Sequence record: PZ452611.1
From: a phage
Length of the DNA: 64,000 nucleotides
Strand: one strand, 5' to 3'
Positions 14,611-37,907 of the stretch are shown here, piece after piece (position 1 is the first letter of the stretch; each line of letters starts with the position of its first letter). Both the position numbers and the translations under genes were made by a program. The notes under the pieces are model-generated. The model made no database searches. It saw nothing but the letters and a program-made list of their open reading frames with translations, and had not been told where the DNA came from.

Positions 14611-14795
14611 TTCCAGTACTCGATCTACTTTTCATCTCATGGCTTGGATTTTCTGAAAATTTTTCTCGATAAATTTCTCAGTACTCGATCTGTTTTTCGT
14701 TTTCTGAATCGGATTTTCTGGAAATCGTTCCGGAGCTCGACCTGAAATTTTTGGGGACGAAATCGATTTTTCGTTTTCAGAAATGGATTTTTAAA
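14611..14795. repeat. three imperfect tandem ~60-bp repeats in AT-rich non-coding region
   Basis: cagtactcgatct at 14614 and 14679; ggattttctg recurring; third diverged unit to 14795. Confidence 0.5.
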
Positions 14796-15078
14796 ATTTC
14801 TATATGGGAATATTTTATGGGATACTGTTTTATAGGAAATTGTTACGGAGGGTAATTAGCATGCTAACTAAATTTATGAAATGCGAAAAGTTCTCATTTA
14901 GAATTTTGAATGATAATCATTCTCGTTTGCAGAATAACGGGCACCCCCGGTGATTGTCTCCCGGCCCCTACTGCCCCGGCTTGTTATTATAGTAACACAC
15001 AGGACAAAGAAAGCAAGAAGTTTTTGCATAAATTTTTAGACGATAATGATAATCGTTCTCATTTTATGCAGCGCCCAT

Positions 15079-15114
15079 CCCCGGTGGTTGTCTCCCCCGT
15101 CACCGGTGCCTGCC
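15079..15114. repeat. GC-rich ~36-bp element, copy in forward orientation (partial copy 14944-14962)
   Basis: ccccggtggttgtctcccccgtcaccggtgcctgcc; about 33 of 37 positions match reverse complement of 23739-23786. Confidence 0.55.
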
Positions 15115-15318
15115 GTCCTTTCGATAGGTATATTGTGCCACCTGGCGGGGCCGCTGTCAACACTTTTCAAAAAATTTTTCTAACCTGATGCGCTAACCGC
15201 TGCAACCTGGCGGGGCCAGCCTGGCAGGACCTAACTGACCAGGTAGGAGAGAATGAAGGCTTATAATCTGGTGGGCCTGTGCTATAGGATAGGTAACAAT
15301 TGAAGAGGAGGTACAAAA

Positions 15319-15501
15319 ATGAAAGGTAATATGATCCCCCTGGAAAATGTAGCGATTAATGACGCTGAGGCTATCGCCCTGGTTGAAAAGGCTATGGCGG
15401 GAGCGTTGGAACATAAAGAAGAGTACGAAAAATGGTGGTTAACCTGGCGGGGGCGGCGGCTGGAGAATTCTGCCCAAAAAATAATTTTAACTAATGGTTG
15501 A
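15319..15501 (+). CDS. hypothetical protein
   Basis: perfect RBS GAGGAGG; 60 aa. Confidence 0.45.
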   Translation: MKGNMIPLENVAINDAEAIALVEKAMAGALEHKEEYEKWWLTWRGRRLENSAQKIILTNG

Positions 15502-15580
15502 CAGCTCGGACAGTTCTTGTTATTCTTATCCTCGCAAGGTGAACAACACCACACTAATTAACAGAGAGGATAAAAAAATC

Positions 15581-15778
15581 ATGAACGCCTACGGAATCAA
15601 AGTACGTCGCAGCACTCGCCAGGTGGTCACCGATCAAATGGTTTGCCAGGTGGACGTAACCATCAACAACGGGCAAGGCCTTTATAAATTTCGTCGCGGT
15701 CATAGCTATACCCTGCAACAGCTTAATCGTTGCGCCCTGACAAAAGGTCAGATCAACCACTGGTTTAATAAAAAATAA
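15581..15778 (+). CDS. hypothetical protein
   Basis: ATG after AGAGGATAAAAAAATC; promoter-like TTGACA at 15498. Confidence 0.45.
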   Translation: MNAYGIKVRRSTRQVVTDQMVCQVDVTINNGQGLYKFRRGHSYTLQQLNRCALTKGQINHWFNKK

Positions 15779-15782
15779 GTAT

Positions 15783-15811
15783 TGACATATAGTCCGACAC
15801 CAAATACACTA
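15783..15811 (+). promoter_or_regulatory. sigma70-like promoter
   Basis: TTGACA-17-TACACT. Confidence 0.45.
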
Positions 15812-15842
15812 AAAGCACAAAAGACACTAAGAGGATAAAATC

Positions 15843-16241
15843 ATGAAAACCACTACCTTTAATTTTGATAATGCAGACTTTTCTTTTTCTGATGTCAAGA
15901 ACTGCCGCCGTGATCGTGGATTTTACAAGGCTTATAATCTGGTGGGCCTGGACGATGACAATAATTTGCACGAAGTAGCTGAGATCCGGTATTATGCCGC
16001 CGCCAGTGGGAACACTTACTACTGCGTTTTTTGGATACACGACAACAAGAACAATAAGTACGGCTATACTGGCGGCAAGGCAAGCGGTCACGGTTATGAT
16101 AAAGCTAACGCAGCACTTGAGAGCGCATTAAATGCCATGGGGATCACTGCCGACGGCTGGATCTACGAAGAAGAGTTTTTGTCGGCACTTGCTGACCACC
16201 TAGGCTATAAAAAGCACATTGTAACATGCGCCCACGAATAA
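15843..16241 (+). CDS. hypothetical protein
   Basis: promoter 15783-15811; RBS AAGAGGA; contains 24-nt segment duplicated at 15256-15279. Confidence 0.5.
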   Translation: MKTTTFNFDNADFSFSDVKNCRRDRGFYKAYNLVGLDDDNNLHEVAEIRYYAAASGNTYYCVFWIHDNKNNKYGYTGGKASGHGYDKANAALESALNAMGITADGWIYEEEFLSALADHLGYKKHIVTCAHE

Positions 16242-16323
16242 AAATCATTGACACGCTGCAAAATTTAAGTAAACTAGACACAAAAGGCGGGAATGTTTCC
16301 CGCCAGCACAAAGGAAAAAGATC

Positions 16324-16728
16324 ATGAATAAGAACGTACGCCGCATCATGAACGAGTTGGCAAACGATGAAAAAATTATTGACATGCATTTGATCAACAT
16401 TTGCCGCCGTTGTGTAACATATAACAACCGCGCCGCAAAAGCGCGTGAGATGAACGCAAAAGGCACCTTAAAGCCATTCCAGGTGGTGGTAAAGGCCATT
16501 AAAGATGTAACTAATACGGCAAACCAGGTACAGGGGAACACCAACGAGAGTACCAATATTGATCCGGCTTACATCATGAAACGGATCCGGACCTGCAAGA
16601 ACAAAGAGCAAGTGTATAATGTCATAGACTGGTTGGATTCTATGGGCGATGTGGTTTACAATAGGTTTTCTGCAGCTATCGAGATCCAGCTTGACAGGTT
16701 GGACGGTAAAGTACTAAAAACTTACTAA
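16324..16728 (+). CDS. hypothetical protein
   Basis: TTGACA 16248; 5'-UTR hairpin 16286-16304; RBS AAAGGAAAAAG. Confidence 0.5.
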   Translation: MNKNVRRIMNELANDEKIIDMHLINICRRCVTYNNRAAKAREMNAKGTLKPFQVVVKAIKDVTNTANQVQGNTNESTNIDPAYIMKRIRTCKNKEQVYNVIDWLDSMGDVVYNRFSAAIEIQLDRLDGKVLKTY

Positions 16729-16776
16729 GTTTATTTTTAGATGGCCTTGACTCCAGGGCCATCGATAAAGTAAACT
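16729..16776. repeat. ~48-bp intergenic palindromic element, copy 1
   Basis: tttatttttagatggccttgactccagggccatcgataaagtaaac directly after stop codon. Confidence 0.6.
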
Positions 16777-16808
16777 AATCCCAGTTAAGCGAAAAAGGAG
16801 GCTTGAAG

Positions 16809-16927
16809 ATGAGCACTACACGCCAACACACAAAGGTAACGATTATCGTTTGCATCATTGGTTACATCCTGGCGCAAATGTTGATGGGTAGCGCCAATGA
16901 TTTCGCAAAATTTTTCTTAGACTTTTA
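16809..16927 (+). CDS. small hydrophobic (single-TM) peptide
   Basis: 39-aa ORF after AAAAGGAGG; hydrophobic core VTIIVCIIGYILAQMLMG; below track cutoff. Confidence 0.35.
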
Positions 16928-16928
16928 A

Positions 16929-16956
16929 TTGACAAGCTAACTTAAATCAGTATAAT
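16929..16956 (+). promoter_or_regulatory. sigma70 consensus promoter
   Basis: TTGACA-16-TATAAT. Confidence 0.6.
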
Positions 16957-17008
16957 ACTAAGCACATAAACGGGAAAACTTCCCAGAACACCAAAAGGAG
17001 AAAACATT

Positions 17009-17359
17009 ATGAATACTTCCATCACTATGACCGCCGAAGAAAAAGCCCTGCAGATCGCCGCTCTGAAAAAACAGATTGCAGAACTTGAAGACAAGATCGA
17101 CAATTTTGAAATCGACGAAGACAAATACGACGATAAATATGATGAATGGTTGGACGAGATCTACGGCGAAATTATGATCGGAAACATTTCTTTTCTTCCG
17201 TCGCGTATCCTCAAGGAGCTAGATCCTATCGCTTACCGCTGCGGATTTAGCGACTACATCGACAGCCTGGATATTGAGGACGATGAAGAATACCAGGAAT
17301 TACAGACAGAGCTTGAAGAAGTGAAAGAAGAGCTTGCAGAACTGGAAGAAAACGAGTAA
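17009..17359 (+). CDS. acidic coiled-coil protein
   Basis: consensus promoter 16929-16956; RBS AAAAGGAGAAAACATT; very acidic D/E-rich sequence. Confidence 0.5.
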   Translation: MNTSITMTAEEKALQIAALKKQIAELEDKIDNFEIDEDKYDDKYDEWLDEIYGEIMIGNISFLPSRILKELDPIAYRCGFSDYIDSLDIEDDEEYQELQTELEEVKEELAELEENE

Positions 17360-17408
17360 ATTTATTTTTAGATGGCCTTGACTTCAGGGCCATCAATAAA
17401 GTAAACTT
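17359..17408. repeat. intergenic palindromic element, copy 2
   Basis: aatttatttttagatggccttgacttcagggccatcaataaagtaaac after stop codon. Confidence 0.6.
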
Positions 17409-17448
17409 TAGACTGTTAACACTTAACCAATACAGAGGAGTTAAAACC

Positions 17449-17694
17449 ATGGCCGCACTAATTACCAAATATTATGCCCCTACCAACACCAAAAGCGCCC
17501 GTATCATGGTAAAAGGCTTCGGACGTAAAAAGGTGTACACCTGGGATTATTCCCTAGACATGGAAGACAACTACACCAACGCGATGACAGATTTTATTAA
17601 TGAGCTGAACACGCGGATCTTGACAAATTATAAAATTACCGATATTGCCTATATAGGGGAAGGCGGGATCTGTTTTGTCGGTATCGTCAAATAA
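17449..17694 (+). CDS. hypothetical protein
   Basis: RBS AGAGGAG; 81 aa. Confidence 0.45.
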   Translation: MAALITKYYAPTNTKSARIMVKGFGRKKVYTWDYSLDMEDNYTNAMTDFINELNTRILTNYKITDIAYIGEGGICFVGIVK

Positions 17695-17770
17695 ACTGTT
17701 TTTTCGGTGGTCCTGGTAGCAGGGCCATCTATAAAGATAGTTTATCAGCACAATGAAAGGAGAAAGTAAC

Positions 17771-18124
17771 ATGATCAGCGGGGCAAGTTTTATTATTGGC
17801 GCTATTGCTACGGCTTTAATTGTAAACAAGATCCAATCCAAAAACGAAAAAGAGAGCAACGCGCTTACAGAATACCCATTTTGGGTATTCAACGACAATG
17901 AAGACTACATTATCAAGTACAAGGATGAGAAAGGGGACCAGGTAACACCGAGACCGATCCCAGCTTACAAGATGCAAGAAACATTATACCGCTTAAAGGC
18001 TGGCGGCGCAAAAATCGTAGACTTTTGGGGATATGATTGCAAGGATCAGGAGACTATAAAACGTCGTATCCGGGCGATTCAGGCAAATATTGAGATCAGT
18101 AAAGGGGGCGTTTATGAAAATTAA
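17771..18124 (+). CDS. membrane-anchored hypothetical protein
   Basis: ATG 17771 after AAAGGAGAAAG; N-terminal TM helix. Confidence 0.45.
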   Translation: MISGASFIIGAIATALIVNKIQSKNEKESNALTEYPFWVFNDNEDYIIKYKDEKGDQVTPRPIPAYKMQETLYRLKAGGAKIVDFWGYDCKDQETIKRRIRAIQANIEISKGGVYEN

Positions 18125-18311
18125 TTTCGAAAAAATTGTAAAGCGCCCCCACGATTCCGAAGAGCTGCCGGAACGCCGCCAGCGTAACAATAAACTGAAT
18201 AAACCGAAAAGGTTCGGGAAGATCTGGAGAAATCACTATGATCGCAAATTACCGGGCCTGCTTTTGGAACGTGAACGACAGGCGGAACGATACCGCCACA
18301 AAGACAAATAG
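18114..18311 (+). CDS. small basic protein
   Basis: ATG after AAAGGGGG; Arg/Lys-rich; followed by terminator. Confidence 0.35.
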   Translation: MKINFEKIVKRPHDSEELPERRQRNNKLNKPKRFGKIWRNHYDRKLPGLLLERERQAERYRHKDK

Positions 18312-18319
18312 CAACCAAC

Positions 18320-18348
18320 GCCCCGCCATTGTGCGGGGCTTTTTATTT
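18320..18348 (+). terminator. rho-independent terminator
   Basis: GCCCCGC-cattgt-GCGGGGC followed by TTTTTATTT. Confidence 0.6.
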
Positions 18349-18492
18349 CTATCCCGCCGATAGCGCCCCTGGTTGGCCCTACAAGCGCCATAAAGGCCCC
18401 TACCTATGCAATCCCCTTTCTTAACCTGAAAACAGCGTCTAGGGCCGTTTTATGGCGTTAAAAATATTATTGACAGTAATTCTATTTAAAGC

Positions 18493-18521
18493 TTGACACC
18501 TTGGGATAGTCCGGATATACT
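18493..18521 (+). promoter_or_regulatory. sigma70-like promoter (second TTGACA at 18470)
   Basis: TTGACA-17-TATACT. Confidence 0.5.
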
Positions 18522-18556
18522 AACCACATCAAAGCAAGAAGGAAGGAGTAAACGCC

Positions 18557-18817
18557 ATGCGTAAATTAAAAAATTTTGATAAAGTAGATGTTGTCCTGAA
18601 TAATTTTTACTACTGCAATAATAAAGCCGTTTGGTGGCGTGATAGTTCCACCGATAAAGTTAAAGCGCGCTTTCTCCAAGGGCACTGGCAAGGCCGCCCA
18701 GTGATTAAAATCTCGGGGCAATTGGTAGCGTTTAAAAATTGCCGCCGTGTTGATGACGTTGAAGAGATTCTAAACATTTTACGCCACAATAATTTAAAAA
18801 ATAGTGTTGACAAGTAA
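18557..18817 (+). CDS. hypothetical protein
   Basis: promoter 18493-18521; RBS AAGGAAGGAG. Confidence 0.5.
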   Translation: MRKLKNFDKVDVVLNNFYYCNNKAVWWRDSSTDKVKARFLQGHWQGRPVIKISGQLVAFKNCRRVDDVEEILNILRHNNLKNSVDK

Positions 18818-18834
18818 GTCTCAATAAGTATACT
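18807..18834 (+). promoter_or_regulatory. sigma70-like promoter
   Basis: TTGACA-16-TATACT. Confidence 0.5.
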
Positions 18835-18891
18835 TAAACACACAGGCGGGAAAACTTCCCGCCACTAACAAAGAAAATAGGAGAAAATATC

Positions 18892-19515
18892 ATGACCACC
18901 GTTAACATTACCACAGGTTACAATTTAGCTTTCGACGTGCTGACCGACGAACAAAAAGAAAAAGCCGTTGAAATGGTCCGAGAAAGAGAAGAACACAGCG
19001 GGGATAACTTTTTTGCAGAAAGTGTAATTGAAGACTATAAAGAATATGTCTTTCCAGAGTATGGCCTTGAAGATACCAAGGTACATTGGTCCGGCTTTTG
19101 GTGCCAGGGTGACGGCGCGTCAATCAGTGCGGAAAACGTGGATTTAGAAAAATTCTTGCGTAAAGTAAAGGCCCTGACCAAGTTCCGATCAATTCGTCAC
19201 TTGTTCGGCACAATGCACGATGGCGAGCTATCCGCAAGTGTTGAGCGTGATCCATATAGCCGCTATAGTCACGAAAACACTGTAAGCGGGTACATCGATA
19301 CTACATGGCTAGACCTGACCGCCAAACAAGAAAATAAAGTGGAAGATCTGGAAGAGCTGATCACCGAGACGGTACGGGAGCTATCCCGCAAGGTTTACGT
19401 AGACCTGGAGGAGGCCTATCTAGAACAGTTCACTACCGAAAACCTGATCGGCCTTATTGAGGCCAATGATTGGCGGTTTGATGTGGATGAATATGGAGAG
19501 ATGAGTTTTTCATAA
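18892..19515 (+). CDS. hypothetical protein
   Basis: promoter 18807-18834; 5'-UTR hairpin; RBS; 207 aa acidic. Confidence 0.5.
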   Translation: MTTVNITTGYNLAFDVLTDEQKEKAVEMVREREEHSGDNFFAESVIEDYKEYVFPEYGLEDTKVHWSGFWCQGDGASISAENVDLEKFLRKVKALTKFRSIRHLFGTMHDGELSASVERDPYSRYSHENTVSGYIDTTWLDLTAKQENKVEDLEELITETVRELSRKVYVDLEEAYLEQFTTENLIGLIEANDWRFDVDEYGEMSFS

Positions 19516-19523
19516 ATAAAGTG

Positions 19524-19552
19524 TTGCAATAATCTAAAAACCTGCTATATTA
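19524..19552 (+). promoter_or_regulatory. sigma70-like promoter
   Basis: TTGCAA-16-TATATT. Confidence 0.45.
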
Positions 19553-19604
19553 AAACTCAAGGGGCAAGACGTTTGCCCCCACACAAAACAAAGAGGAAAA
19601 CATC

Positions 19605-19985
19605 ATGAAAAACACTACCAAAGCTATTTACACCGTTATGTTTAACCTGGTTACCTTTCGCGAGGATATGAAAGATCTTCCGCGTGAAACAGTGTGCGAC
19701 CATATCGAAAACTATCGCAAACTAATCAAAGAGTTGCCTTTAAAACGTGATCAGTATGCGGCTAACGCCATGCTTAATGCCATGATCAAAAAGATGATCC
19801 AGTGTGATTTAATTCTAGCCTATGATTATGCGGGTGGTCGTTTTGCAGTATACAATCAGCCCGTGCCCGGTATGGGCACCATCGAAGAATTGCACGCGCT
19901 CAATCTAAAACAAGATGTGTGGGATAGTATGCCCCGCGTGGTGGTGTGGGCAGAAAGCGGGAAGATTTACGGCGATAGTTTTTAA
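19605..19985 (+). CDS. hypothetical protein
   Basis: promoter 19524-19552; hairpin; RBS AAAGAGGAAAACATC. Confidence 0.5.
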   Translation: MKNTTKAIYTVMFNLVTFREDMKDLPRETVCDHIENYRKLIKELPLKRDQYAANAMLNAMIKKMIQCDLILAYDYAGGRFAVYNQPVPGMGTIEELHALNLKQDVWDSMPRVVVWAESGKIYGDSF

Positions 19986-20049
19986 TCAGGTAACAGGCGG
20001 CATATTTGCCGCCTTATTGTTAAACAAAACTGCAAAAGAGGTACATAGA

Positions 20050-20421
20050 ATGGAATTTATTATTTTGGCTGTATTGGTTGCCTTGTTTAACGCCTGGATC
20101 GCTGGCAAGATGGGCAGATCCGCCTTTTTATGGTTTATTATATCTATTTTCCTGGGGGTGGTTGCAACTATTGTATTGGTTATCCTTGCAATTGTTGACA
20201 AGGGGAATAATAGAAAGGGTAAAGTATTTTCAGACCTGTACGACGCTCAAACGTTTGTCAACGCCTATTATAGTGATCTTCCAGTCTCCCTACGCTGCAG
20301 CTTGGCACAACAGGTTTTTGATGAGGCTAAAACCAGAGATCAAGCCCATGAGATATGTTTAACTGAGGCGGATCGCCTATTTGAGAGGAATAGAAAATAT
20401 GTGGGCCAACCGTTTAAATAA
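20050..20421 (+). CDS. hypothetical membrane protein (2 predicted TM helices)
   Basis: ATG after AAAAGAGG; hydrophobic segments. Confidence 0.45.
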   Translation: MEFIILAVLVALFNAWIAGKMGRSAFLWFIISIFLGVVATIVLVILAIVDKGNNRKGKVFSDLYDAQTFVNAYYSDLPVSLRCSLAQQVFDEAKTRDQAHEICLTEADRLFERNRKYVGQPFK

Positions 20422-20531
20422 TGCCACGTTAATTAATCCCTTTAGTGAAGATTTGAAGCCAGCCGCCTGGCGTGACGGATTCAATAACGAACGCTTTATT
20501 TTCAGGCCTGATCTTGAGGAATTTTATAACA

Positions 20532-20657
20532 ATGGATCGAACAACAGCGGAGATAATTTTTCTTGTGGTGTGTGTCGTGATAGGACTCCTGGGGGCCATT
20601 GTAGATCGCGTCACTACTACCAGAAGGAAAGGGGGAGACGATGACAACCAAGGATAA
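20532..20657 (+). CDS. small single-TM peptide
   Basis: 41-aa ORF; competing overlapping frame from 20399 exists. Confidence 0.25.
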   Translation: MDRTTAEIIFLVVCVVIGLLGAIVDRVTTTRRKGGDDDNQG

Positions 20658-20760
20658 GCCATGCACCGATAAGGTGCGCCGCGTTATGGTATGGCTTGAG
20701 ATTATCGCCCTTGAAATATTGCTAGGCGTAGGGATGTACTTTATCGCTGTAAGTAACTAA
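20641..20760 (+). CDS. small single-TM peptide
   Basis: 39-aa ORF after AAAGGGGGAGACG; followed by terminator. Confidence 0.3.
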   Translation: MTTKDKPCTDKVRRVMVWLEIIALEILLGVGMYFIAVSN

Positions 20761-20764
20761 GAAC

Positions 20765-20792
20765 GGCCCCCGATCATGGGGGCCTATCTTTT
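20765..20792. terminator. rho-independent terminator (possibly bidirectional)
   Basis: GGCCCCC-gatcat-GGGGGCC then TATCTTTT; A-run follows. Confidence 0.55.
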
Positions 20793-20816
20793 AAAAAAAA
20801 ATTTTCTTCCGGGGTG

Positions 20817-20845
20817 TTGCAATCCGGTCCGGAATGTGGATAATA
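20817..20845 (+). promoter_or_regulatory. sigma70-like promoter
   Basis: TTGCAA-17-ATAATA. Confidence 0.4.
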
Positions 20846-20900
20846 ACAATCAACGGGGAGCTAATCCCCACCACCACAAAAACCAGAAAGGAGAAACAAA

Positions 20901-21101
20901 ATGAGCAACAATATCCGCGTTATTAACTTCAAAAAAGAAGAAAAAATTGCCGTGCTGATTGACGGTCAAGAAATCTTCAAGGGCGACTATGAAGATCATC
21001 AAACGGCGATTAGTATCACTCGCGTGATTGGTTACCATAATTTCTACCCCCAAGGCGCTGAGGCAGCAGTTAAACGAATCAAAGAGATTGTAGGCCTGTA
21101 A
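20901..21101 (+). CDS. hypothetical protein
   Basis: promoter-like 20817-20845; hairpin; RBS AAAGGAG. Confidence 0.5.
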   Translation: MSNNIRVINFKKEEKIAVLIDGQEIFKGDYEDHQTAISITRVIGYHNFYPQGAEAAVKRIKEIVGL

Positions 21102-21150
21102 AATTTATTTTTAGATGGCCTTGACTTCAGGGCCATCAATAAAGTAAATT
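21100..21150. repeat. intergenic palindromic element, copy 3
   Basis: identical core to copy 2; after stop codon. Confidence 0.6.
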
Positions 21151-21192
21151 TAAACCCTGTTAAAATAATCAGTGCAAAAAGGAGTAATGATC

Positions 21193-21492
21193 ATGTTTAT
21201 ACCCGCCAATAATCTTTATTTCTTTGATGGTCAGATCGTAGACGGTGTGGAAGTGGAGATCACTGGGTGCCCTGGTGGTCAGGCTATGACTTTTCGGAAT
21301 AATGCCTTTGATGATTCTCGTATCGTTATGAGAATGGAAGTTACAAAGCTGGACGACAAGAAAACGCTCATTGACTATTCCGTGAAAGATCATCCAGACT
21401 ACCACATGATCTATGGTGATTTGTGTATTGTTGACCGTGACAAGGTGGGCGGCATTGTGATCGCTATTGTGAACGATGTTTTCTCTGAATAA
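21193..21492 (+). CDS. hypothetical protein
   Basis: ATG 8 nt after AAAAGGAG. Confidence 0.45.
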   Translation: MFIPANNLYFFDGQIVDGVEVEITGCPGGQAMTFRNNAFDDSRIVMRMEVTKLDDKKTLIDYSVKDHPDYHMIYGDLCIVDRDKVGGIVIAIVNDVFSE

Positions 21493-21631
21493 TTCCGGCA
21501 AATGATGCAAAATAAGGCCCCTAGCAGGGCCTGCAGCGATATAATCACATAAAGGCTATGCGGTTGCATGGCCTTTATTATTTTAGCGTTACAGCGTCCC
21601 CAAGGCGCTTAAAAAATTTTTAAAGAAGTAC

Positions 21632-21660
21632 TTGCATCAAGTCCTACAATATGGATAATA
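21632..21660 (+). promoter_or_regulatory. sigma70-like promoter
   Basis: TTGCAT-17-ATAATA. Confidence 0.4.
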
Positions 21661-21716
21661 GGACGTGTCAGGGGGGCGGCCCCCAATCATTAACCGGATA
21701 GATAGGAGTTAAAATC

Positions 21717-22001
21717 ATGGCTATTGTCACCGTTGGCGATGTAGTGGAAATGGAAGCAAAATACTTAAAAGCGGGTATGCATATCCTACGGAATGATCAA
21801 GAATTGTTATTAACGATGGTAGACTATAATCCCGGCCAGGATTATCCAAGCATCGACATACTTTTTGAGTATGTTGATGAAGAATTGAAAGAGGATGAGG
21901 CTTATCAGGGTGAATTCTGCAATTTCTTTTGCCCTGATGAGGTTGTAAAAGTTATCTATCAACCTGGCGTACCTTTCCCGCTGCACGCTATCAATAAATA
22001 A
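21717..22001 (+). CDS. hypothetical protein
   Basis: promoter 21632-21660; hairpin GGGGGCGGCCCCC; RBS ATAGGAG. Confidence 0.5.
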   Translation: MAIVTVGDVVEMEAKYLKAGMHILRNDQELLLTMVDYNPGQDYPSIDILFEYVDEELKEDEAYQGEFCNFFCPDEVVKVIYQPGVPFPLHAINK

Positions 22002-22055
22002 ACCTGGCGGGGCCGAAAAGGCCCCAATTATGAAAATAAAGAGAGGTAAATCATC

Positions 22056-22289
22056 ATGATGGAACAAATTAAACGCGCTGAGGCTATTAATGGCAATGTG
22101 ATCTATTTTGTCAGCAAAAACGAAAAAGGCGTACCATATGCGGCGGTAATAGTACAACCTGACGGCGATTATTGGTTTACTGTATACGGATCTTATTCTT
22201 TCGGGCGTCCGGTTCATGATAGAATTTTGAAAGTAGCGAATCCGACCGGGAAAAATATCACAGCAGAAAAATTTTTTGAAAATAGTTGA
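22056..22289 (+). CDS. hypothetical protein
   Basis: hairpin; RBS AAAGAGAGG. Confidence 0.45.
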   Translation: MMEQIKRAEAINGNVIYFVSKNEKGVPYAAVIVQPDGDYWFTVYGSYSFGRPVHDRILKVANPTGKNITAEKFFENS

Positions 22290-22314
22290 CATGACCATAT
22301 AAGACTGTAATATA
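22286..22314 (+). promoter_or_regulatory. sigma70-like promoter
   Basis: TTGACA-16-TAATAT. Confidence 0.5.
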
Positions 22315-22365
22315 TAAATCAAAGGGGGGCAACAAGCCCCACCAACCACAAAGAGGATAAAAATC

Positions 22366-22545
22366 ATGGCTATTATTGCAAAGACTGAGATCGTAGGCTT
22401 AGATTCTATTCTCCTCGCATATGAGGAAGCTATAGAAATGTATGTGGTTTCCTATGGTGAATATATCCGTGAATATAAATCTATTGATCTGGCTTTTGAA
22501 TGTTATATTCGCCAGGTTAATAAAGCGTACGATGATTATCGTTAA
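22366..22545 (+). CDS. hypothetical protein
   Basis: promoter 22286-22314; hairpin; RBS AAAGAGGA; 59 aa. Confidence 0.4.
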   Translation: MAIIAKTEIVGLDSILLAYEEAIEMYVVSYGEYIREYKSIDLAFECYIRQVNKAYDDYR

Positions 22546-22635
22546 AATAGCTTGACAACAAACAACCATCTAACAAAGCATAATACATAAGGCGGTGGAA
22601 TGGTCCGCCACCTGGAACAAGAAGAGGAAAACAAG

Positions 22636-22740
22636 ATGAAACAGAAATTAATTGATGCGGTGATCCTGGTTATTGCCCTGGGTATTGGCCTGATTGCAAC
22701 CATGTCTAATATGATCTTGTCTTCCAACGGTATCGGGTGA
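22636..22740 (+). CDS. small single-TM peptide
   Basis: 34-aa ORF after hairpin and AAGAAGAGGAAAACAAG. Confidence 0.3.
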   Translation: MKQKLIDAVILVIALGIGLIATMSNMILSSNGIG

Positions 22741-22749
22741 GGTTGGCAA

Positions 22750-22965
22750 ATGATCACTAACAAAACAGGCAAAACAGAATTTTTACGCAACTTACAGATC
22801 GGCAAGCCTGAGATCTGGTATTGCACTAAAACACCACGTGACGAAATGAAAGACTTCACCGCCACGCTGCAACGGGTAAAGATATCCATCACGCAGAAAA
22901 AGGCCTTATTAGTGGTGGAAGGTGAGATCCCCCAAACCGTTGTTATAGTTGAGCGTACAGCATAG
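22750..22965 (+). CDS. hypothetical protein
   Basis: ATG after GAGG; 71 aa. Confidence 0.4.
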   Translation: MITNKTGKTEFLRNLQIGKPEIWYCTKTPRDEMKDFTATLQRVKISITQKKALLVVEGEIPQTVVIVERTA

Positions 22966-23056
22966 TTTAATTTATACCGATACCCGAAAATTAACCAACA
23001 AAGCATAAACAGGCGGTTACCGCCGCCTTAAACGTAGCAGAAAGAGGATAGACACA

Positions 23057-23341
23057 ATGAAAAAGATGATCGCAGTGGTTGCCCTGGTTGTTGGACTTAA
23101 TGCGCCTGTAATGGCTAAAGAGCTGGCAAAAGAGGTTAATCTAACGGATATTCATGCCGTCAATCAAATCGGGGTTACTTATCGCTTATGCCTTGCCGCT
23201 AAAACTTTTAATGACGGTACAACAGAGTACTACGGATTCGAGGGTATCCGGTGCGGTGAGCTTGCTCGCGACCTTAAGGAAGATTCAGACCTGGAGGATC
23301 TGCCCATAACCGTGAACGGGAAAACTTACGTGAACCGTTAA
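23057..23341 (+). CDS. secreted/periplasmic small protein
   Basis: Sec-type signal peptide MKKMIAVVALVVGLNAPVMA; RBS AAAGAGGA. Confidence 0.5.
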   Translation: MKKMIAVVALVVGLNAPVMAKELAKEVNLTDIHAVNQIGVTYRLCLAAKTFNDGTTEYYGFEGIRCGELARDLKEDSDLEDLPITVNGKTYVNR

Positions 23342-23343
23342 CC

Positions 23344-23478
23344 ATGAAAAAGATAATCATCACCTTGGGGATTGTGGTGGCAATATTGGCGCTCTTCCCC
23401 CTTATGGTTAGGTATGTGCTGATCAGTGTTATTCTAGTGGTCAGCGATCTGGTGTTATATATTAACTCATTGTTTTAG
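23344..23478 (+). CDS. small membrane protein
   Basis: 44-aa hydrophobic ORF right after upstream stop. Confidence 0.3.
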   Translation: MKKIIITLGIVVAILALFPLMVRYVLISVILVVSDLVLYINSLF

Positions 23479-23486
23479 GTGCGATA

Positions 23487-23678
23487 ATGACCACTGATGA
23501 AGCTGTAAAAGTGTTGGCGGTATTGAGATATCATAATCAAACAAAGGTTATAAACGATCCTGATTATGTTGACTCAAAGCGTGAAGATGAGACATTGACC
23601 GCAATATGGATTATTCAAGAATTGCTAAAGCGCATGACAGAGAAAAACCGACCGGACTACATAGGCGAAAAAATATAA
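23487..23678 (+). CDS. hypothetical protein
   Basis: 63 aa; followed by terminator-like hairpin. Confidence 0.4.
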   Translation: MTTDEAVKVLAVLRYHNQTKVINDPDYVDSKREDETLTAIWIIQELLKRMTEKNRPDYIGEKI

Positions 23679-23738
23679 TATTTATAAACTACAAAACAGG
23701 GCTTGCAATGGTCCTGTTTTTTGTTATACTTATTCCAC

Positions 23739-23786
23739 GGCAGGCACCTGGCGACGGGGGGAGACAATCACCGGGGGGTGCCTGTC
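23739..23786. repeat. GC-rich element, inverted copy with internal 8-bp stem
   Basis: ggcaggcacctggcgacggggggagacaatcaccggggggtgcctgtc. Confidence 0.55.
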
Positions 23787-23807
23787 ATATAAGAACTATA
23801 AAAACCG

Positions 23808-23836
23808 TTGACATCTGCCAGGGGGTGGGGTAACAT
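23808..23836 (+). promoter_or_regulatory. sigma70-like promoter
   Basis: TTGACA-17-TAACAT. Confidence 0.45.
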
Positions 23837-23890
23837 TTATCTTGAAGGGGCAAAAGTGCCCACACAACAACCAGAAGAGAGGAAAACATT

Positions 23891-24163
23891 ATGTCAAGCT
23901 GGATTAATCAAGAAGTCGAATCACGTTTTAATGCTATTTGGGATCTCATCGAAAAAGAGGACGGAACATCAAGCCCTTACCTCAATAATCTTGAATTCCA
24001 TTTTGTGGAAGCGATGAACGCAGAACATGATCACGAAGGTGGTGCGGACGAGTTCGCTAAAAGGTATGGCTTCAACAATGCCAACGAAATGATCGAGGCG
24101 GTTGTACTCCAGGCTGAGGAAGATTATCAATTAAAAACGCTTGAATTCTGCCGCCGCAAGTAA
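23891..24163 (+). CDS. hypothetical protein
   Basis: promoter 23808-23836; hairpin; RBS GAGAGGAAAACATT. Confidence 0.5.
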   Translation: MSSWINQEVESRFNAIWDLIEKEDGTSSPYLNNLEFHFVEAMNAEHDHEGGADEFAKRYGFNNANEMIEAVVLQAEEDYQLKTLEFCRRK

Positions 24164-24223
24164 TAAGATAATGACACGGGCCAAAAGGCCCACTAATCAG
24201 AACCACACAAAGAGAGAAAGAAA

Positions 24224-24442
24224 ATGACAACCCGTAAAATTAAAGTTGTTTGCATTGAATCTACTGGGGGCGCTTTTGTAGTTGGTCAGGAATATAATGC
24301 GGTTTTAATGGGTACGGATTGGAAGGTTAAAGGCCTTAATGGTTACGAGTACGGCACTACTTGCGGCTTGCGTGGTCGAATCGGATACGTGAGTTTAGAC
24401 AATAAAGAAAAATTTGTTTTCGACACCCTTGTGAGTAAATAG
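24224..24442 (+). CDS. hypothetical protein
   Basis: hairpin GGGCCAAAAGGCCC; RBS. Confidence 0.45.
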   Translation: MTTRKIKVVCIESTGGAFVVGQEYNAVLMGTDWKVKGLNGYEYGTTCGLRGRIGYVSLDNKEKFVFDTLVSK

Positions 24443-24519
24443 CATGAATTGCTAAAGACTGATCTGCGAACTGCTGTATTATCAACTAATCAAAACGAAC
24501 CACATAAAGAGGAAACATC

Positions 24520-24783
24520 ATGAAACGTCTGGATCAGCTTAAATTAGTTCAGTACATGGCCTACAGAATTCTTGAAGTCCAAAAAGGTAGCAAAAAAGAG
24601 GTTTGCGAGAAAGCTTATAAGATCTTTACCCGCAAAAAAGATGACTGGATGCTACGCCAGACCAAAAAGGCTGACATCTTGGGGTACCTGGAAGAAGAGA
24701 TCCGACTTGAAGAGCAAGAAGAGATCCGCCGCAGTGAGGCAGATTATCAGGCAGCTTGGGAAAACTGGATGAGTAACAAATAA
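24520..24783 (+). CDS. hypothetical protein
   Basis: RBS AAAGAGGAAACATC. Confidence 0.45.
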   Translation: MKRLDQLKLVQYMAYRILEVQKGSKKEVCEKAYKIFTRKKDDWMLRQTKKADILGYLEEEIRLEEQEEIRRSEADYQAAWENWMSNK

Positions 24784-24851
24784 TACAACAAGTTGCACGA
24801 TCAGGGGGGCAATAAAGCCCCTTGATCACATAAAAATTATGCTATCCTTGG

Positions 24852-24880
24852 TTGACAAGGATCGGCAGTTTTGCTATATT
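24852..24880 (+). promoter_or_regulatory. sigma70-like promoter
   Basis: TTGACA-17-TATATT. Confidence 0.55.
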
Positions 24881-24929
24881 CTTTTTTGAAGGGAAGTTGT
24901 AAGAAAATTAACTAAGAGGTAAAAACACC

Positions 24930-25349
24930 ATGAACATTAAATCTAATAATCCGGCATATAGCTTTGATAACGCTTTTTGTCACGGTCCGGCGGCGAAAGG
25001 ATTCGAAATCGATGGTAAACTAATTATTGTCAATGTTGACGGGGAAGAGGTTGCAGTATATCCGGTGGCAGACGTTAAAAGCCGTTTGCAATGCCGCATG
25101 GATGTTACCGCCTACCAGCTTGATCCGGTCCGCATAGTTGCCCTGGTCCTGGAGGAAGAGATCAAAGCCATGCATCATAGCAATAAGTTTATCGGTGACG
25201 CGCAAGATAATATGAAGGTATGCCGCTATAAAGTTAATGAAGTGCTTAAAGAATACGGCTTCAAAGATCTGATGATCAAGCGTGATGAAAAATTCCGTTA
25301 TCGTAACGACCTGGCAAATCGAATCTATGAAATATACGAATCATTATAA
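24930..25349 (+). CDS. hypothetical protein
   Basis: promoter 24852-24880; RBS AAGAGG; last plus-strand gene, followed by terminator. Confidence 0.5.
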   Translation: MNIKSNNPAYSFDNAFCHGPAAKGFEIDGKLIIVNVDGEEVAVYPVADVKSRLQCRMDVTAYQLDPVRIVALVLEEEIKAMHHSNKFIGDAQDNMKVCRYKVNEVLKEYGFKDLMIKRDEKFRYRNDLANRIYEIYESL

Positions 25350-25367
25350 TTTCTTAACTAAACTATC

Positions 25368-25395
25368 AGGGGCTTTAAAAGGCCCCTTTCTTTTG
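25368..25395 (+). terminator. rho-independent terminator ending plus-strand arm
   Basis: AGGGGC-tttaaaag-GCCCCT then TTCTTTTG. Confidence 0.55.
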
Positions 25396-26347
25396 TCTGT
25401 ATTTCTCCTACCACAAACGGCCCAGCCTGGCAAGTGGAATAATTGACTAGCCAGCAATTACCAACACTGTACAAATATACATATAAAATAACTATTGCAT
25501 AATCTTTCATCTTGTGGTAGCAGGGCCATTTTTACACGTTTTCCTTCCAAAATTGCACGTAATGCAGCTATTGCATAAAATTTAACCTGATGCACATCTT
25601 CAATAGCTTGTCAACAACTAAAAATCTTTATAAGTCATACACTTACATAACCACAAAAGCGTGTTCTACGTGAAAAATCGAGTATAACTATAGCCGCCAG
25701 ATCTCAGAATTTACGTACGCTCACCATTCTATAGTCTGCTAAGTATTTATTCCAACCATAGAATAACAGAATAGTCAATACCTGCATAAAATAATTATTC
25801 GTGTAAACTGCATAACATAAATCAGCCGGGGTGTCAACATTTTTCGTAAACGGCTCGAAATTATCACTGTGAGCTATCATAAACAGAGAAATCTTTAGTC
25901 GTCTAATGTTTACTGTACGTTACTATACTAACTGGAATCATTAGATGACTAATAAAAAGATAAGAAATCATTAACAATGCAATTGTTTTATTCATAACAA
26001 TAAGGCAACTATGCAAACGAATGGCATGGCGCGACGGAGTCGCGACATAATATAAAAGCAGTAACCATCACCCCCGTGATAGTTTGTCTGCAAACTATTA
26101 ATCAGATCATAGTTGCCTTGTATTTAGTTAATCATGACATAAACTCAGGCATAGCCTTCGTCTCGAGGATGTTAACAAGCAAGGCAACTATAGATCTTCT
26201 AATAGTTGCCCTGCTTTTATATTATGTCATAGAAACACCCGAAGGGGTGACCAAAGGTCACCTGGCATAGCCAGTGAAATATTGTAAACAAGTTAATTAT
26301 TATCATGCAAACGAATGGCATGGCTTATCATCTCTGTGTAAATAGTT

Positions 26348-30144: not shown

Positions 30145-30299
30145 TACTGCGCTCCTTGGGTAATAATATTGTATGTAAAACTTTAACCAGAGATGTGAAT
30201 AACGCCCCAAAACACACCGATAGCGCTAAAACAGACAAGGCCATCATTAAAGCTTCAGTAAAATCAGTCACTCCTCACCTCTTGTTAGTCACTATACTG

Positions 30300-37269: not shown

Positions 37270-37469
37270 CCCTCATCGCACGTCTGATATAACCACTCTA
37301 TAAAATCTTGATACCATTCGCCCTCTGAGCGCTCCGTAGGCCAATAATCTTCACCCTCTCGTGCATTAAAATCTGAGTATTCAACTTTCCACTCCTTTAC
37401 CAGCTCGTGGAGAAGGTTTTCAGCCTGCTCTAAAGATTTATTTTTTGCCATTGCTGTCTCCTTTTTCAA
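37266..37469 (-). CDS. hypothetical protein
   Basis: ORF. Confidence 0.35.
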   Translation of the reverse strand: MKKETAMAKNKSLEQAENLLHELVKEWKVEYSDFNAREGEDYWPTERSEGEWYQDFIEWLYQTCDEG

Positions 37470-37670
37470 GATAGTTATACATCAGAACTGCACCACCTAA
37501 GATGGCTACCAGTAACAATACCCCAGATAGCATCTCAATAAACATGGCTTGAAACACTGGAAGGTCTCCCTAAATTAACGCACCATTTTAAATACATGCT
37601 CTTTTCCCATAAAGGTGCCTGGCTAAGATCTGCGTAGAACGCAATCTCTTTAAGAACAGTATAAACAGTT

Positions 37671-37907
37671 TTAGGTGCGGTCTCCATCCCTACTCTCCTT
37701 TTTCTCCTTACGGATATTCTTGTAGTAATCAACTAGGCACATTATTACAATGAAGATAACAATAGGCCAAAAAGGTGCAGCAGTGATGATGGTGATAAAA
37801 TCATCAAACTTCACCTTTCGTCTAGCTACGATGCATACACCTGTCAAGAATACCGCTGTTATAACGGCTATTACCAGGTAACCTATTAGCACAGCATTTA
37901 TACTCAT
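37671..37907 (-). CDS. membrane protein (2 TM)
   Basis: two hydrophobic helices. Confidence 0.4.
   Translation of the reverse strand: MSINAVLIGYLVIAVITAVFLTGVCIVARRKVKFDDFITIITAAPFWPIVIFIVIMCLVDYYKNIRKEKKESRDGDRT

What the first reader, a model, noticed from the sequence alone, without database searches (positions are those of the whole stretch)
16809..23478. Cluster of very small hydrophobic peptides (34-44 aa) missed by the 60-aa ORF cutoff
Candidates with good RBSs are 16809-16927 (39 aa), 20532-20657 (41 aa), 20641-20760 (39 aa), 22636-22740 (34 aa) and 23344-23478 (44 aa), each with one predicted TM helix. A similar one overlaps 37266-37469 on the minus strand (about 37455-37562). Such peptides often act as holins or antiholins, membrane toxins or modulators of host membrane proteins.
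Basis: partly seen in the sequence, partly recalled or inferred. Interest (0 to 1): 0.4.

Follow-up and report, generated by a model that had tools for sequence, protein, structure and literature searches.

The report
Tiny membrane-peptide genes of phage rV5
The six very small hydrophobic reading frames are real, conserved genes of E. coli phage rV5 for 34-44-residue membrane peptides, but five were already published as "membrane protein, 1 TMD" in 2013; only one (c2) is a generally overlooked gene, and what any of them does is still unknown.

Summary
The window is Escherichia phage rV5 (DQ832317). All six ORFs exist and each has one strong hydrophobic segment. They stay intact in relatives and show purifying selection in their own frame only (pN/pS 0.06-0.52). 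Such ORFs are far above chance: 4-6 observed against 0.0-0.1 in shuffles.

They were not missed by annotators. Five are annotated CDSs (gp193, gp181, gp173, gp170, gp131), are listed as "membrane protein, 1 TMD" in the 2013 rV5 paper, and have PHROG families of unknown function.

- c6 lies at 37438-37557 (-), with a GTG start.
- c5 has no RBS and is coupled to the upstream gene.

The one new item is c2 (20532-20657). It is unannotated in rV5 and overlaps the 3' tail of annotated ORF182. In the overlap the c2 frame is the constrained one (0.46 against 1.25), and it is intact in 117 of 117 Vequintavirus genomes.

A holin or antiholin role is not supported. Each peptide has one TMD, none matches a holin family, and the lysin is 22-43 kb away. 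The most likely role is accessory inner-membrane peptides acting through specific helix contacts, which is inferred and untested. Overall this is ordinary and largely known.

The parts
16809..16928 (+). c1 = rV5 gp193 (ORF193), 39 aa, predicted N-in single-pass peptide with an AAGGAGG SD
   Evidence: Annotated CDS and listed as '1 TMD' in Table S3. Belongs to phrog_16391. Intact in 14 relatives with pN/pS 0.24, permutation P 1/500. Deleted together with ORF192 in phage ECP26.
16929..16956 (+). Perfect sigma70 consensus promoter (TTGACA-16-TATAAT), P192 of the record, starting 1 nt after the c1 stop
   Evidence: Promoter scan scored 12/12 and the record annotates it.
20050..20421 (+). ORF183 (gp183), 123 aa, 1-2 TMD membrane protein. 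It heads the ORF183-ORF182/c2-c3 string and is labelled 'putative holin' in BASEL phages.
   Evidence: Belongs to phrog_13090, unknown function; no Pfam family reaches its cut-off.
20399..20644 (+). ORF182 (gp182), the annotated 81-aa frame. Only its first 44 codons look constrained; its 3' tail overlaps c2.
   Evidence: N-part pN/pS 0.36 (P 52/1000). In the overlap pN/pS is 1.25 (P 975/1000), and a premature stop (Y74*) is present in 14 of 22 genomes.
20532..20657 (+). c2, 41 aa, predicted N-out/C-in single-pass peptide. It is unannotated in rV5 and lies in the +1 frame over the ORF182 tail.
   Evidence: The ATG and a GAGGA/AAGGA motif are invariant in 21 unique sequences. pN/pS is 0.46-0.49 (P 26-39/1000), with 17 synonymous and 24 non-synonymous changes, against 8 and 32 in the ORF182 frame. 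tblastn finds it at full length in 117 of 117 records. It has been called as a gene only 4 times in 5.8 billion clusters. It is annotated in phage Gotham as F10B_0188. It has no PHROG or Pfam family.
20641..20760 (+). c3 = gp181, 39 aa, predicted N-in and tail-anchored. Its TM helix carries two Glu residues and is invariant.
   Evidence: Belongs to phrog_13629. pN/pS 0.23 (P 1/500 and 2/1000). Residues 16-35 are invariant in 19 sequences despite synonymous changes.
20765..20784 (+). Intrinsic-terminator hairpin (8 pairs, 7 G-C, followed by a T-run) directly after c3
   Evidence: Terminator scan. A G+C-rich hairpin is present at this position in relatives.
22636..22740 (+). c4 = gp173 read from the conserved start, 34 aa, N-in. 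The record's 46-aa start at 22600 is not conserved.
   Evidence: The phrog_14631 profile is 34 aa long. The 34-aa form is annotated in JES2013, JeffSchatz, Mangalyan and EP57. pN/pS 0.38 (P 0/500). It is 50-59% identical in Stephanstirmvirinae and always lies directly upstream of the ORF172 homolog.
23057..23341 (+). ORF171 (gp171), 94 aa with an N-terminal signal-peptide-like sequence. It is the upstream partner to which c5 is translationally coupled.
   Evidence: Sequence read. The ORF171+c5 pair is syntenic in PD06 and EP57. Belongs to phrog_9845, unknown function.
23344..23478 (+). c5 = gp170, 44 aa, with one strong TM segment plus a weaker hydrophobic C-terminal half. It has no SD.
   Evidence: Belongs to phrog_16005. 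pN/pS 0.48 (P 8/500). Intact in 16 relatives, including two Stephanstirmvirinae at 59-61% aa identity. Often left unannotated in relatives.
37438..37557 (-). c6 = gp131, 39 aa, predicted N-out/C-in, GTG start. It overlaps gp130 by 23 nt and gp132 by 14 nt.
   Evidence: Belongs to phrog_15251. pN/pS 0.06 (P 0/500), with a GTG/ATG start swap among relatives and 35 of 39 residues invariant. At least 90% aa identity in 117 of 117 records. One 40-aa relative at 61% identity.
37671..37907 (-). gp129, 78 aa, 2 TMD. The rV5 authors proposed it as the holin; it lies two genes upstream of c6.
   Evidence: Belongs to phrog_10061, unknown function.

Best explanation
The six ORFs are six unrelated, genuine genes of phage rV5. 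Each encodes a 34-44-residue single-pass inner-membrane peptide.

c1-c5 sit in the leftward small-ORF arm of the genome (transcription unit genes 10-1-238-164), which carries sigma70-type promoters. From this layout I infer that they are made early by host RNA polymerase. c6 sits in a string of overlapping tiny genes in unit 82-163.

The peptides are kept by purifying selection across the genus Vequintavirus, and c4 and c5 also in the subfamily Stephanstirmvirinae. Selection falls on the membrane helix itself in c3, c6 and c1, and on a short extramembrane tail in c4.

The mechanism I think most likely is this. After insertion into the E. coli inner membrane, each peptide binds a particular host or phage membrane protein through helix-helix contacts and changes its activity. 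That could mean host takeover, exclusion of superinfecting phage, or tuning of envelope functions. This is how bacterial small membrane proteins such as AcrZ and MgrB work. On this view the peptides are not the lysis holin.

c2 is a real seventh member of this class of gene in the region. It is translated from its own ATG in the +1 frame over the unconstrained 3' tail of ORF182.

Shown: existence, conservation, frame-specific constraint, hydrophobic segment, genomic setting.
Inferred: membrane insertion, topology, early expression, binding to a partner.
For: Existence and conservation:
- The window is rV5 and five of the ORFs are annotated.
- The rV5 paper lists five as '1 TMD'.
- The ORFs are intact in 6-21 relatives each.
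- Own-frame pN/pS is c1 0.24, c2 0.49, c3 0.23, c4 0.38, c5 0.48 and c6 0.06, against 0.66-2.8 in the shifted frames. Column-permutation P ranges from 0/500 to 39/1000.
- Counts are far above shuffled expectation.

Where selection acts:
- c3 residues 16-35 and 35 of 39 residues of c6 are invariant while synonymous sites vary. In c4 the C-terminal tail is the conserved part.
- c4+ORF172 and ORF171+c5 are syntenic across two subfamilies.
- The peptides are not similar to each other, so this is not one expanded family.

Setting:
- Sigma70 promoters and terminators bracket the genes, and the transcription units are described in the paper.
- Natural loss of c1+ORF192 in ECP26 shows accessory status.

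c2 specifically:
- Its frame is constrained while the ORF182 tail is not.
- It is intact in 117 of 117 genomes.
Against: - I found no transcript, ribosome-profiling or peptide evidence for any of them. The rV5 mass spectrometry covered virions only.
- No partner is known, and all neighbouring genes are of unknown function.
- Constraint on c2 (P about 0.03) and c5 (P about 0.02) is modest.
- The relatives are closely related, so the permutation P values overstate independence.
- An invariant TM helix would also be expected for a self-assembling channel or toxin.
- Early timing is inferred from promoter type and genome layout, not measured. The rV5 paper notes that sigma70-like promoters occur all over the genome.
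Confidence: 0.6

Rival explanations
1. Lysis control. One or more of the peptides are holins, antiholins or holin partners that set the time of lysis. The main candidates are c6, next to the proposed holin gp129, and c2/c3, downstream of ORF183, which BASEL annotators call 'putative holin'.
For: - rV5 has no identified holin. Its lysis genes are dispersed and gp129 was proposed from TMD prediction only.
- c6 lies two genes downstream of gp129 in a tightly overlapping string and is the most constrained peptide.
- ORF183, c2 and c3 form one unit that ends in a terminator.
- Vequintavirinae in general lack a classic lysis cassette.
Against: - Each peptide has a single TMD and only 34-44 aa. By my own knowledge of holin classes, holins usually have 2-3 TMDs, and single-TMD holins such as T4 T are much larger.
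- None hits a holin or antiholin family in Pfam or PHROGs.
- The lysin gp89 is 22-43 kb away.
- c1-c5 lie in the small-ORF arm with sigma70 promoters.
- Both 'holin' labels on the neighbours are untested predictions, and they contradict each other.
- ORF128, labelled 'putative glycosidase', shows no hydrolase signature.
Confidence: 0.1
2. Membrane toxins or viroporin-like peptides. The peptides oligomerise in the inner membrane and dissipate the proton-motive force or leak ions, contributing to host shut-off. This resembles type I toxins such as Hok and TisB.
For: - Size, hydrophobicity and single helix match.
- c3 has two conserved Glu residues inside the helix, and c6 has conserved small-residue motifs (SG, GGA) that could line or pack an oligomer.
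- An invariant helix is compatible with self-assembly.
Against: - A non-specific membrane-damaging peptide should tolerate conservative hydrophobic substitutions, yet c3 and c6 tolerate almost none.
- Six different toxins in one lytic phage would be redundant.
- Early collapse of membrane potential would harm phage DNA replication and packaging (inference).
- No antisense-RNA or translation-blocking leader of the type I kind is evident, and the SDs are strong and exposed. This is read from the sequence and not tested by folding.
Confidence: 0.12
3. c2 is not a gene. The only product of 20399-20644 is ORF182, and the c2 frame is open and looks constrained by accident of the overlapping ORF182 and the c3 ribosome-binding site.
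For: - Gene finders almost never call c2: 4 calls against a 235-member ORF182 cluster.
- The SD spacer is long, at 11 nt.
- The last 6-7 codons of c2 overlap the c3 SD and start codon, which would conserve them anyway.
- The permutation P is only 0.026-0.039.
Against: - In the overlap the ORF182 frame behaves as non-coding: pN/pS 1.25, 32 of 40 changes non-synonymous, and a nonsense mutation in 14 of 22 genomes.
- In the same overlap the c2 frame has pN/pS 0.46 and no stop in any sequence.
- The ATG is invariant, although T20533C would be silent in ORF182.
- c2 is at full length in 117 of 117 genomes down to 73% aa identity.
- Its hydrophobic segment is the strongest of the set on the Hessa scale, at -4.5 kcal/mol.
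Confidence: 0.25
4. ORF182-N and c2 are two halves of one protein. A programmed +1 frameshift at the conserved GAGGAA-TTTT site (about 20517-20525) would join them into an 85-aa bitopic membrane protein.
For: - Constraint switches from the ORF182 frame to the c2 frame near 20532.
- The c2 frame is open from 20472.
- An SD-like GAGGA/AAGGA followed by TTTT is invariant in 21 sequences.
Against: - No slow or stop codon follows the TTTT.
- The nearby rare AGG codon is not conserved.
- An invariant ATG with an SD explains the data more simply.
- No phage encodes the two halves in one frame: all 119 hits have the two-frame layout.
Confidence: 0.04

Closest known systems
rV5 gp193, gp181, gp173, gp170 and gp131, listed as 'membrane protein, 1 TMD' (Kropinski et al. 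2013, Virol J 10:76, Table S3), and PHROGs 16391, 13629, 14631, 16005 and 15251
   Same: These are the same genes as c1, c3, c4, c5 and c6: same coordinates, same TMD prediction, function unknown.
   Different: c2 is absent from the record, from the table and from PHROGs. The record starts gp173 twelve codons too early, judged by conservation. The paper gave no comparative or selection analysis.
Bacterial small inner-membrane regulators (AcrZ 49 aa, MgrB 47 aa, MgtS 31 aa, KdpF 29 aa) and the 44-aa papillomavirus E5 protein (from my own knowledge)
   Same: They share the size range, a single helix, short charged tails, and conservation centred on the helix. This is the pattern seen in c3 and c6.
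   Different: There is no sequence similarity, no known partner, and the genes are phage-encoded. This is a resemblance in likely mode of action only.
Phage holins and antiholins (lambda S105/S107, phage 21 pinholin, T4 T/RI, P1 LydA/LydB; from my own knowledge)
   Same: They are small phage-encoded inner-membrane proteins. c6 lies near the candidate holin gp129.
   Different: The peptides have one TMD and 34-44 aa, against the usual 2-3 TMDs and 70-220 aa. They are not next to the lysin, have no dual-start motif and have no family match.
Type I toxin peptides (Hok, TisB, Ldr, Ibs, ShoB; from my own knowledge)
   Same: They are hydrophobic single-helix peptides of 19-50 aa.
   Different: Those are chromosomal or plasmid genes repressed by antisense RNAs. 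Here there are strong SDs, phage promoters, operon context, and a helix sequence that is nearly invariant.
T4 Imm (83 aa) and Sp (97 aa) superinfection-exclusion proteins, and single-gene lysis peptides such as the 37-aa LysM of levivirus M that blocks MurJ (from my own knowledge)
   Same: They are small membrane peptides of lytic phages that act by binding a specific envelope component.
   Different: There is no homology. Imm and Sp are larger. Single-gene lysis peptides occur in phages without an endolysin, whereas rV5 has a lysin and spanins.

Membership tests
PHROG families 16391 / 13629 / 14631 / 16005 / 15251 (unknown function) | Full-length profile match | tested here: met
   c1, c3, c4 (34 aa), c5 and c6 match end to end with E from 8e-23 to 2e-32. 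c2 matches no family.
Holin (classes I-III, pinholin) | Sequence membership of a described holin family | tested here: not met
   No Pfam or PHROG holin or lysis family hit for any peptide.
Holin (classes I-III, pinholin) | Usual architecture: 2-3 TMDs (or one TMD with a large periplasmic domain) plus a charged C-terminus | tested here: not met
   Each has one strong hydrophobic segment and a total length of 34-44 aa (Table S3 '1 TMD'). c3 and c4 have uncharged C-termini.
Holin (classes I-III, pinholin) | Gene adjacent to or co-transcribed with the endolysin, expressed late | tested here: not met
   The lysin gp89 is at 59920-60390 (-). c6 is 22 kb away, and c1-c5 are 36-43 kb away in another unit. 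Expression timing is not measurable here.
Holin (classes I-III, pinholin) | Triggered lethal hole formation that releases endolysin | not testable with these tools
   Needs expression and lysis assays.
Type I toxin-antitoxin peptide | Small hydrophobic toxic peptide | tested here: inconclusive
   Size and hydrophobicity fit. Toxicity was not tested.
Type I toxin-antitoxin peptide | Cognate antisense or overlapping small RNA and a known toxin family | tested here: not met
   No Pfam toxin family hit. No dedicated RNA search was done. The genes sit in sense-strand operons with strong SDs.
Small membrane-protein regulators (AcrZ/MgrB-like mode of action) | Single TM helix, 50 aa or fewer, with conservation centred on the helix or a short tail | tested here: met
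   Conservation profiles and hydrophobic segments. This is a functional analogy, not a homologous family.
Small membrane-protein regulators (AcrZ/MgrB-like mode of action) | Demonstrated binding to and modulation of a larger membrane protein | not testable with these tools
   Needs two-hybrid, pull-down or phenotype data.
Overlapping (overprinted) gene pair: ORF182/c2 | Both frames open in all relatives | tested here: inconclusive
   c2 is open in all 19 unique sequences and in 117 of 117 records. ORF182 is open but truncated by Y74* in 14 of 22.
Overlapping (overprinted) gene pair: ORF182/c2 | Purifying selection detectable in each frame | tested here: inconclusive
   In the overlap only c2 is constrained (0.46 against 1.25). 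ORF182 is constrained only upstream of the overlap (0.36, P 0.05).

The most novel reading that the evidence does not exclude
rV5-like phages carry a battery of at least seven, and possibly nine or more, unrelated 27-46-aa 'designer helices'. Each would be tuned to dock onto a different E. coli inner-membrane protein. c3 and c6, with almost invariant helices, are the clearest cases.

One of the set, c2, is a genus-wide gene that standard gene finders suppress because it is overprinted on the tail of ORF182. If this is true, the set would be a ready-made library of natural transmembrane inhibitors or modulators of bacterial envelope proteins.

A still more exotic sub-case, at about 4%, is a +1 frameshift fusion of ORF182-N with c2.
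Probability: 0.25. Interest if true: 0.55.

Novelty: already known. Interest (0 to 1): 0.22.

Why it matters
Small membrane peptides are a large, mostly uncharacterised part of phage genomes, and a few known examples are potent, specific inhibitors of envelope enzymes or receptors. For this finding the practical value is modest:

2. It corrects two annotation points in the rV5 reference: the start of gp173, and the missing c2 gene over the unconstrained tail of ORF182.
3. It ranks c6 and c3 as the best candidates for functional work, because their helices are almost invariant.

It opens no new kind of biology. The genes and their TMD predictions have been in the literature since 2013.

Tried and rejected
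- **Wider relatives.** IMG/VR and metagenome scans with ORF185 and ORF183 returned only 2 and 5 close relatives, so the conservation tests rest on GenBank Vequintavirus genomes fetched one at a time.
- **Family searches.** Pfam gave nothing above noise for any peptide or for ten neighbouring genes. PHROGs gave only 'unknown function' families.
- **Lysis cassette around c6.** ORF128, which BASEL labels 'putative glycosidase', has no signal peptide, no Pfam family and no PDB relative. The real lysin is 22 kb away. I rejected this idea.
- **The 'putative holin' label in BASEL phages.** It belongs to the ORF183 homolog, not to any of the peptides.
- **Paralogy among the six peptides.** Only composition-level similarity was found. 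Rejected.
- **Frameshift fusion of ORF182-N and c2.** No single-frame homolog exists in 119 records, and the nearby AGG codon is not conserved. I kept it only as a 4% rival.
- **Large-database searches.** They found no relatives with a known function: c2 had 4 hits, c5 had 7, and c6 had its own family plus one 40-aa relative.
- **Literature.** I found no transcriptome, ribosome-profiling or infected-cell proteome for a Vequintavirus that covers these genes.
- **Technical failures.** A Pfam scan of lysin gp89 returned nothing at E<=0.001, although PHROG_90 endolysin matched at 2e-56.
- **Not attempted.** I did not run structure prediction, because a helix model of a 40-aa peptide would not discriminate between the hypotheses.

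Full report
**Identity of the window.** Window 16000-24000 is 100% identical to Escherichia phage rV5 (DQ832317 / NC_011041, Vequintavirus V5), in reverse complement. About 200 related phage records match, most at 90-95% identity. GC skew and ORF layout show that the + strand is the coding strand up to about 28 kb and the - strand beyond that.

**The observation.** All six ORFs exist. Their peptides are:
- c1: MSTTRQHTKVTIIVCIIGYILAQMLMGSANDFAKFFLDF
- c2: MDRTTAEIIFLVVCVVIGLLGAIVDRVTTTRRKGGDDDNQG
- c3: MTTKDKPCTDKVRRVMVWLEIIALEILLGVGMYFIAVSN
- c4: MKQKLIDAVILVIALGIGLIATMSNMILSSNGIG
- c5: MKKIIITLGIVVAILALFPLMVRYVLISVILVVSDLVLYINSLF
- c6: MFQAMFIEMLSGVLLLVAILGGAVLMYNYLEKGDSNGKK

c6 runs from a GTG at 37557 down to 37438 on the - strand, not at 37455-37562. 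Each peptide has a 17-19-residue segment with a Kyte-Doolittle mean of 2.1-2.9 and a summed Hessa-scale dG of -4.5 to 0 kcal/mol. The scale values are from memory.

On the coding strand of 14000-28000, ORFs of 30-60 aa with such a segment and an SD-like motif number 4, against 0.0+/-0.2 in shuffles. Without the SD filter they number 6, against 0.1+/-0.3. The antisense strand is at background.

**They were not missed by annotators.** The GenBank record annotates ORF193 (c1), ORF181 (c3), ORF173 (c4, with a longer start), ORF170 (c5) and ORF131 (c6). The rV5 paper scanned the proteome with TMHMM and Phobius. PHROGs has a family for each of the five, all of unknown function, and the c4 profile is 34 aa long. 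Pfam has nothing. Only c2 is absent from the record, the paper and PHROGs.

**Are they genes?** I fetched the homologous DNA from the following sources:
- 13 to 21 Vequintavirus genomes and metagenome contigs;
- three Stephanstirmvirinae (PD06, EP57, ESCO9);
- one Certrevirus.

Every candidate keeps its start, stop and frame in every relative that has the segment. Nei-Gojobori pN/pS in the proposed frame, compared with the two shifted frames, is shown below. The permutation test re-deals the observed column patterns among columns that share the same reference base.

| Peptide | Own-frame pN/pS | Shifted frames | Permutation P |
|---|---|---|---|
| c1 | 0.24 | 0.74, 2.8 | 1/500 |
| c3 | 0.23 | 1.0, 1.5 | 1/500 and 2/1000 |
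| c4 (34 aa) | 0.38 | 0.88, 2.6 | 0/500 |
| c5 | 0.48 | 0.66, 1.1 | 8/500 |
| c6 | 0.06 | 1.6, 2.3 | 0/500 |

The sequences are related, so these P values are indicative only.

Further points on each peptide:
- c6 uses GTG in rV5 and ATG in four relatives, which pins down the start codon. It is at least 90% identical in 117 of 117 records.
- c3 residues 16-35 (MVWLEIIALEILLGVGMYFI) are invariant in 19 sequences although synonymous sites vary.
The record's ATG at 22600 is missing in Mangalyan, YN3, PD06, EP57 and ESCO9, and many annotators use the 34-aa form.
- c4 and c5 are 50-61% identical in Stephanstirmvirinae. There they keep their positions directly upstream of the ORF172 homolog and directly downstream of the ORF171 homolog, and those neighbours are 79-88% identical.
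- c1 is dispensable. Phage ECP26 lacks c1 and ORF192, and its junction is a single copy of a roughly 47-bp repeat that flanks this segment in rV5.

**c2 and ORF182.** The record annotates ORF182 (20399-20644, 81 aa). c2 lies in the +1 frame over its last 113 nt. Annotators disagree here. Most copy ORF182, I29 annotates the opposite strand, and only Gotham annotates c2.

With 19-21 unique sequences the results are as follows:
- In the overlap the c2 frame has pN/pS 0.46 (P 26/1000), 17 synonymous and 24 non-synonymous changes, and no stop codon.
- In the same overlap the ORF182 frame has pN/pS 1.25 (P 975/1000), 8 synonymous and 32 non-synonymous changes, and a nonsense change (Y74*) in 14 of 22 genomes.
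- Upstream of c2 the ORF182 frame is the constrained one (0.36, P 52/1000).

The c2 ATG and a GAGGA/AAGGA motif 11 nt upstream are invariant. tblastn finds c2 at full length in 117 of 117 Vequintavirus records, down to 73% identity. Even so, c2-like peptides were called only 4 times among 5.8 billion protein clusters, against a 235-member cluster for ORF182.

I conclude, at about 0.7, that c2 is a real gene that gene finders suppress in favour of the longer overlapping ORF. ORF182 is probably real only in its first 44 codons or so, followed by an unconstrained tail.

A +1 frameshift fusion would give the same switch of constraint. However, there is no slow codon at the candidate TTTT site, the nearby AGG codon is not conserved, and no phage encodes the two halves in one frame.

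**Setting.** The rV5 authors describe 88 mainly small ORFs between record positions 92269 and 121323, and four transcription units. c1-c5 are in unit 10-1-238-164 and c6 is in unit 82-163. The local signals are these:
- A perfect sigma70 consensus promoter starts 1 nt after c1 (16929-16956).
- c1 itself follows a hairpin/TTGACT-18-TAAACT repeat.
- ORF183 (1-2 TMD), ORF182/c2 and c3 form a string closed by a strong terminator at 20765-20784.
- c5 has no SD and starts 2 nt after the stop of ORF171, which has a signal-peptide-like N-terminus.
- c6 overlaps both of its neighbours within gp129-gp130-gp131-gp132-gp133.
- All neighbours are of unknown function, except gp133, which is a virion protein.

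**Function.** Nothing here identifies a function, so what follows is inference. A holin or antiholin role is unlikely for these reasons:
- Each peptide has one TMD and only 34-44 aa.
- None belongs to a holin family.
- The lysin gp89 (59920-60390, PHROG endolysin at 2e-56) is 22-43 kb away.
- According to the literature, the spanins sit beside the terminase.

The only lysis link is that c6 lies near gp129, which was called a holin from TMD prediction alone. BASEL annotators instead label the ORF183 homolog as holin. The 'glycosidase' label on ORF128 has no support.

A non-specific toxin should tolerate hydrophobic substitutions, yet c3 and c6 tolerate almost none. The six peptides are unrelated to each other, and c1 can be lost.

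The best-fitting picture is a set of accessory inner-membrane peptides that each contact a specific membrane partner through the helix (c3, c6, c1) or a short tail (c4). This is how bacterial small membrane proteins act. The outcome could be host takeover, exclusion of other phages, or tuning of the envelope. By the positive-inside rule, c1, c3 and c4 would be N-in and c2 and c6 N-out.

**Verdict.** The 'missed' framing and the holin idea are not supported. Five of the six peptides are already published, and c2 is a small annotation gain. Interest is low to moderate.

Noticed in passing
window 35622-35711 (-): An unannotated 29-aa hydrophobic ORF (MIASILTFMGGVAFGFIVCLFIVIMSMRG) exactly fills the 95-nt gap between gp137 and gp138. 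tblastn finds it at full length in 91 Vequintavirus records, mostly unannotated there.
   Followed up: partly
window 30573-30656 (-): A 27-aa hydrophobic ORF (MINLAKVATALLIICWSVTLTLCLVFQ) lies in the 108-nt gap between gp154 and gp155. It is absent from rV5 Table S3 and is at full length in 118 records, some of which annotate a CDS there.
   Followed up: partly
   Followed up: partly
window 16730-16776, 17361-17407, and about 21104-21150 (+): A repeat of about 47 bp, TTTATTTTTAGATGGCCTTGACTyCAGGGCCATCrATAAAGTAAACT, has a 7-bp-stem hairpin whose loop carries a TTGACT -35-like hexamer, with TAAACT/TAAATT 18 nt downstream. Its core occurs 3 times against 0.02 expected. It may be a regulated promoter. 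Its antisense strand produces the recurrent spurious 'MALKSRPSKNKF' ORFs.
   Followed up: partly
L020 (ECP26) 985-1085 compared with window 16700-17431: Phage ECP26 lacks the 631-bp segment carrying c1 and ORF192. Its junction is one copy of the repeat above, which points to recombination between the two copies, or to insertion of a cassette in the other phages.
   Followed up: yes
window 22600-22635: The rV5 record starts gp173 at 22600 (46 aa). That start is not conserved, and in JLBYU08, FFH2 and JES2013 an extra 246-bp gene sits just upstream of the 34-aa c4.
   Followed up: yes
window 18238-18461, 20776-20904 and about 21195-21293 (+): Several other very small ORFs annotated in the rV5 record (ORF188, ORF187, ORF180, ORF178) are not annotated by most relatives. 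Some overlap terminator or promoter signals (for example the hairpin at 18320-18339), so they may be spurious.
   Followed up: no
phage records MG0656xx (for example H4, H16, H20): About 20 records named 'Campylobacter phage', with host given as Campylobacter jejuni, are 92-99% identical to this E. coli phage over the whole region. That is odd for phages of such a different host and suggests mislabelling or contaminating coliphages.
   Followed up: no
window 16000-24000 and 30000-37600 compared with DQ832317: The window is '100%' identical to the record but differs by small length changes: 8001 against 8004 bases, and the coordinate offset shifts by 2-3 nt. It may therefore come from a slightly different version or isolate of rV5.
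   Followed up: no
window 59920-60390 (-): The lysin gp89 matches PHROG_90 'endolysin' at 2e-56, but the Pfam scan returned no family at E<=0.001, although the 2013 paper reports PF00959.
   Followed up: partly
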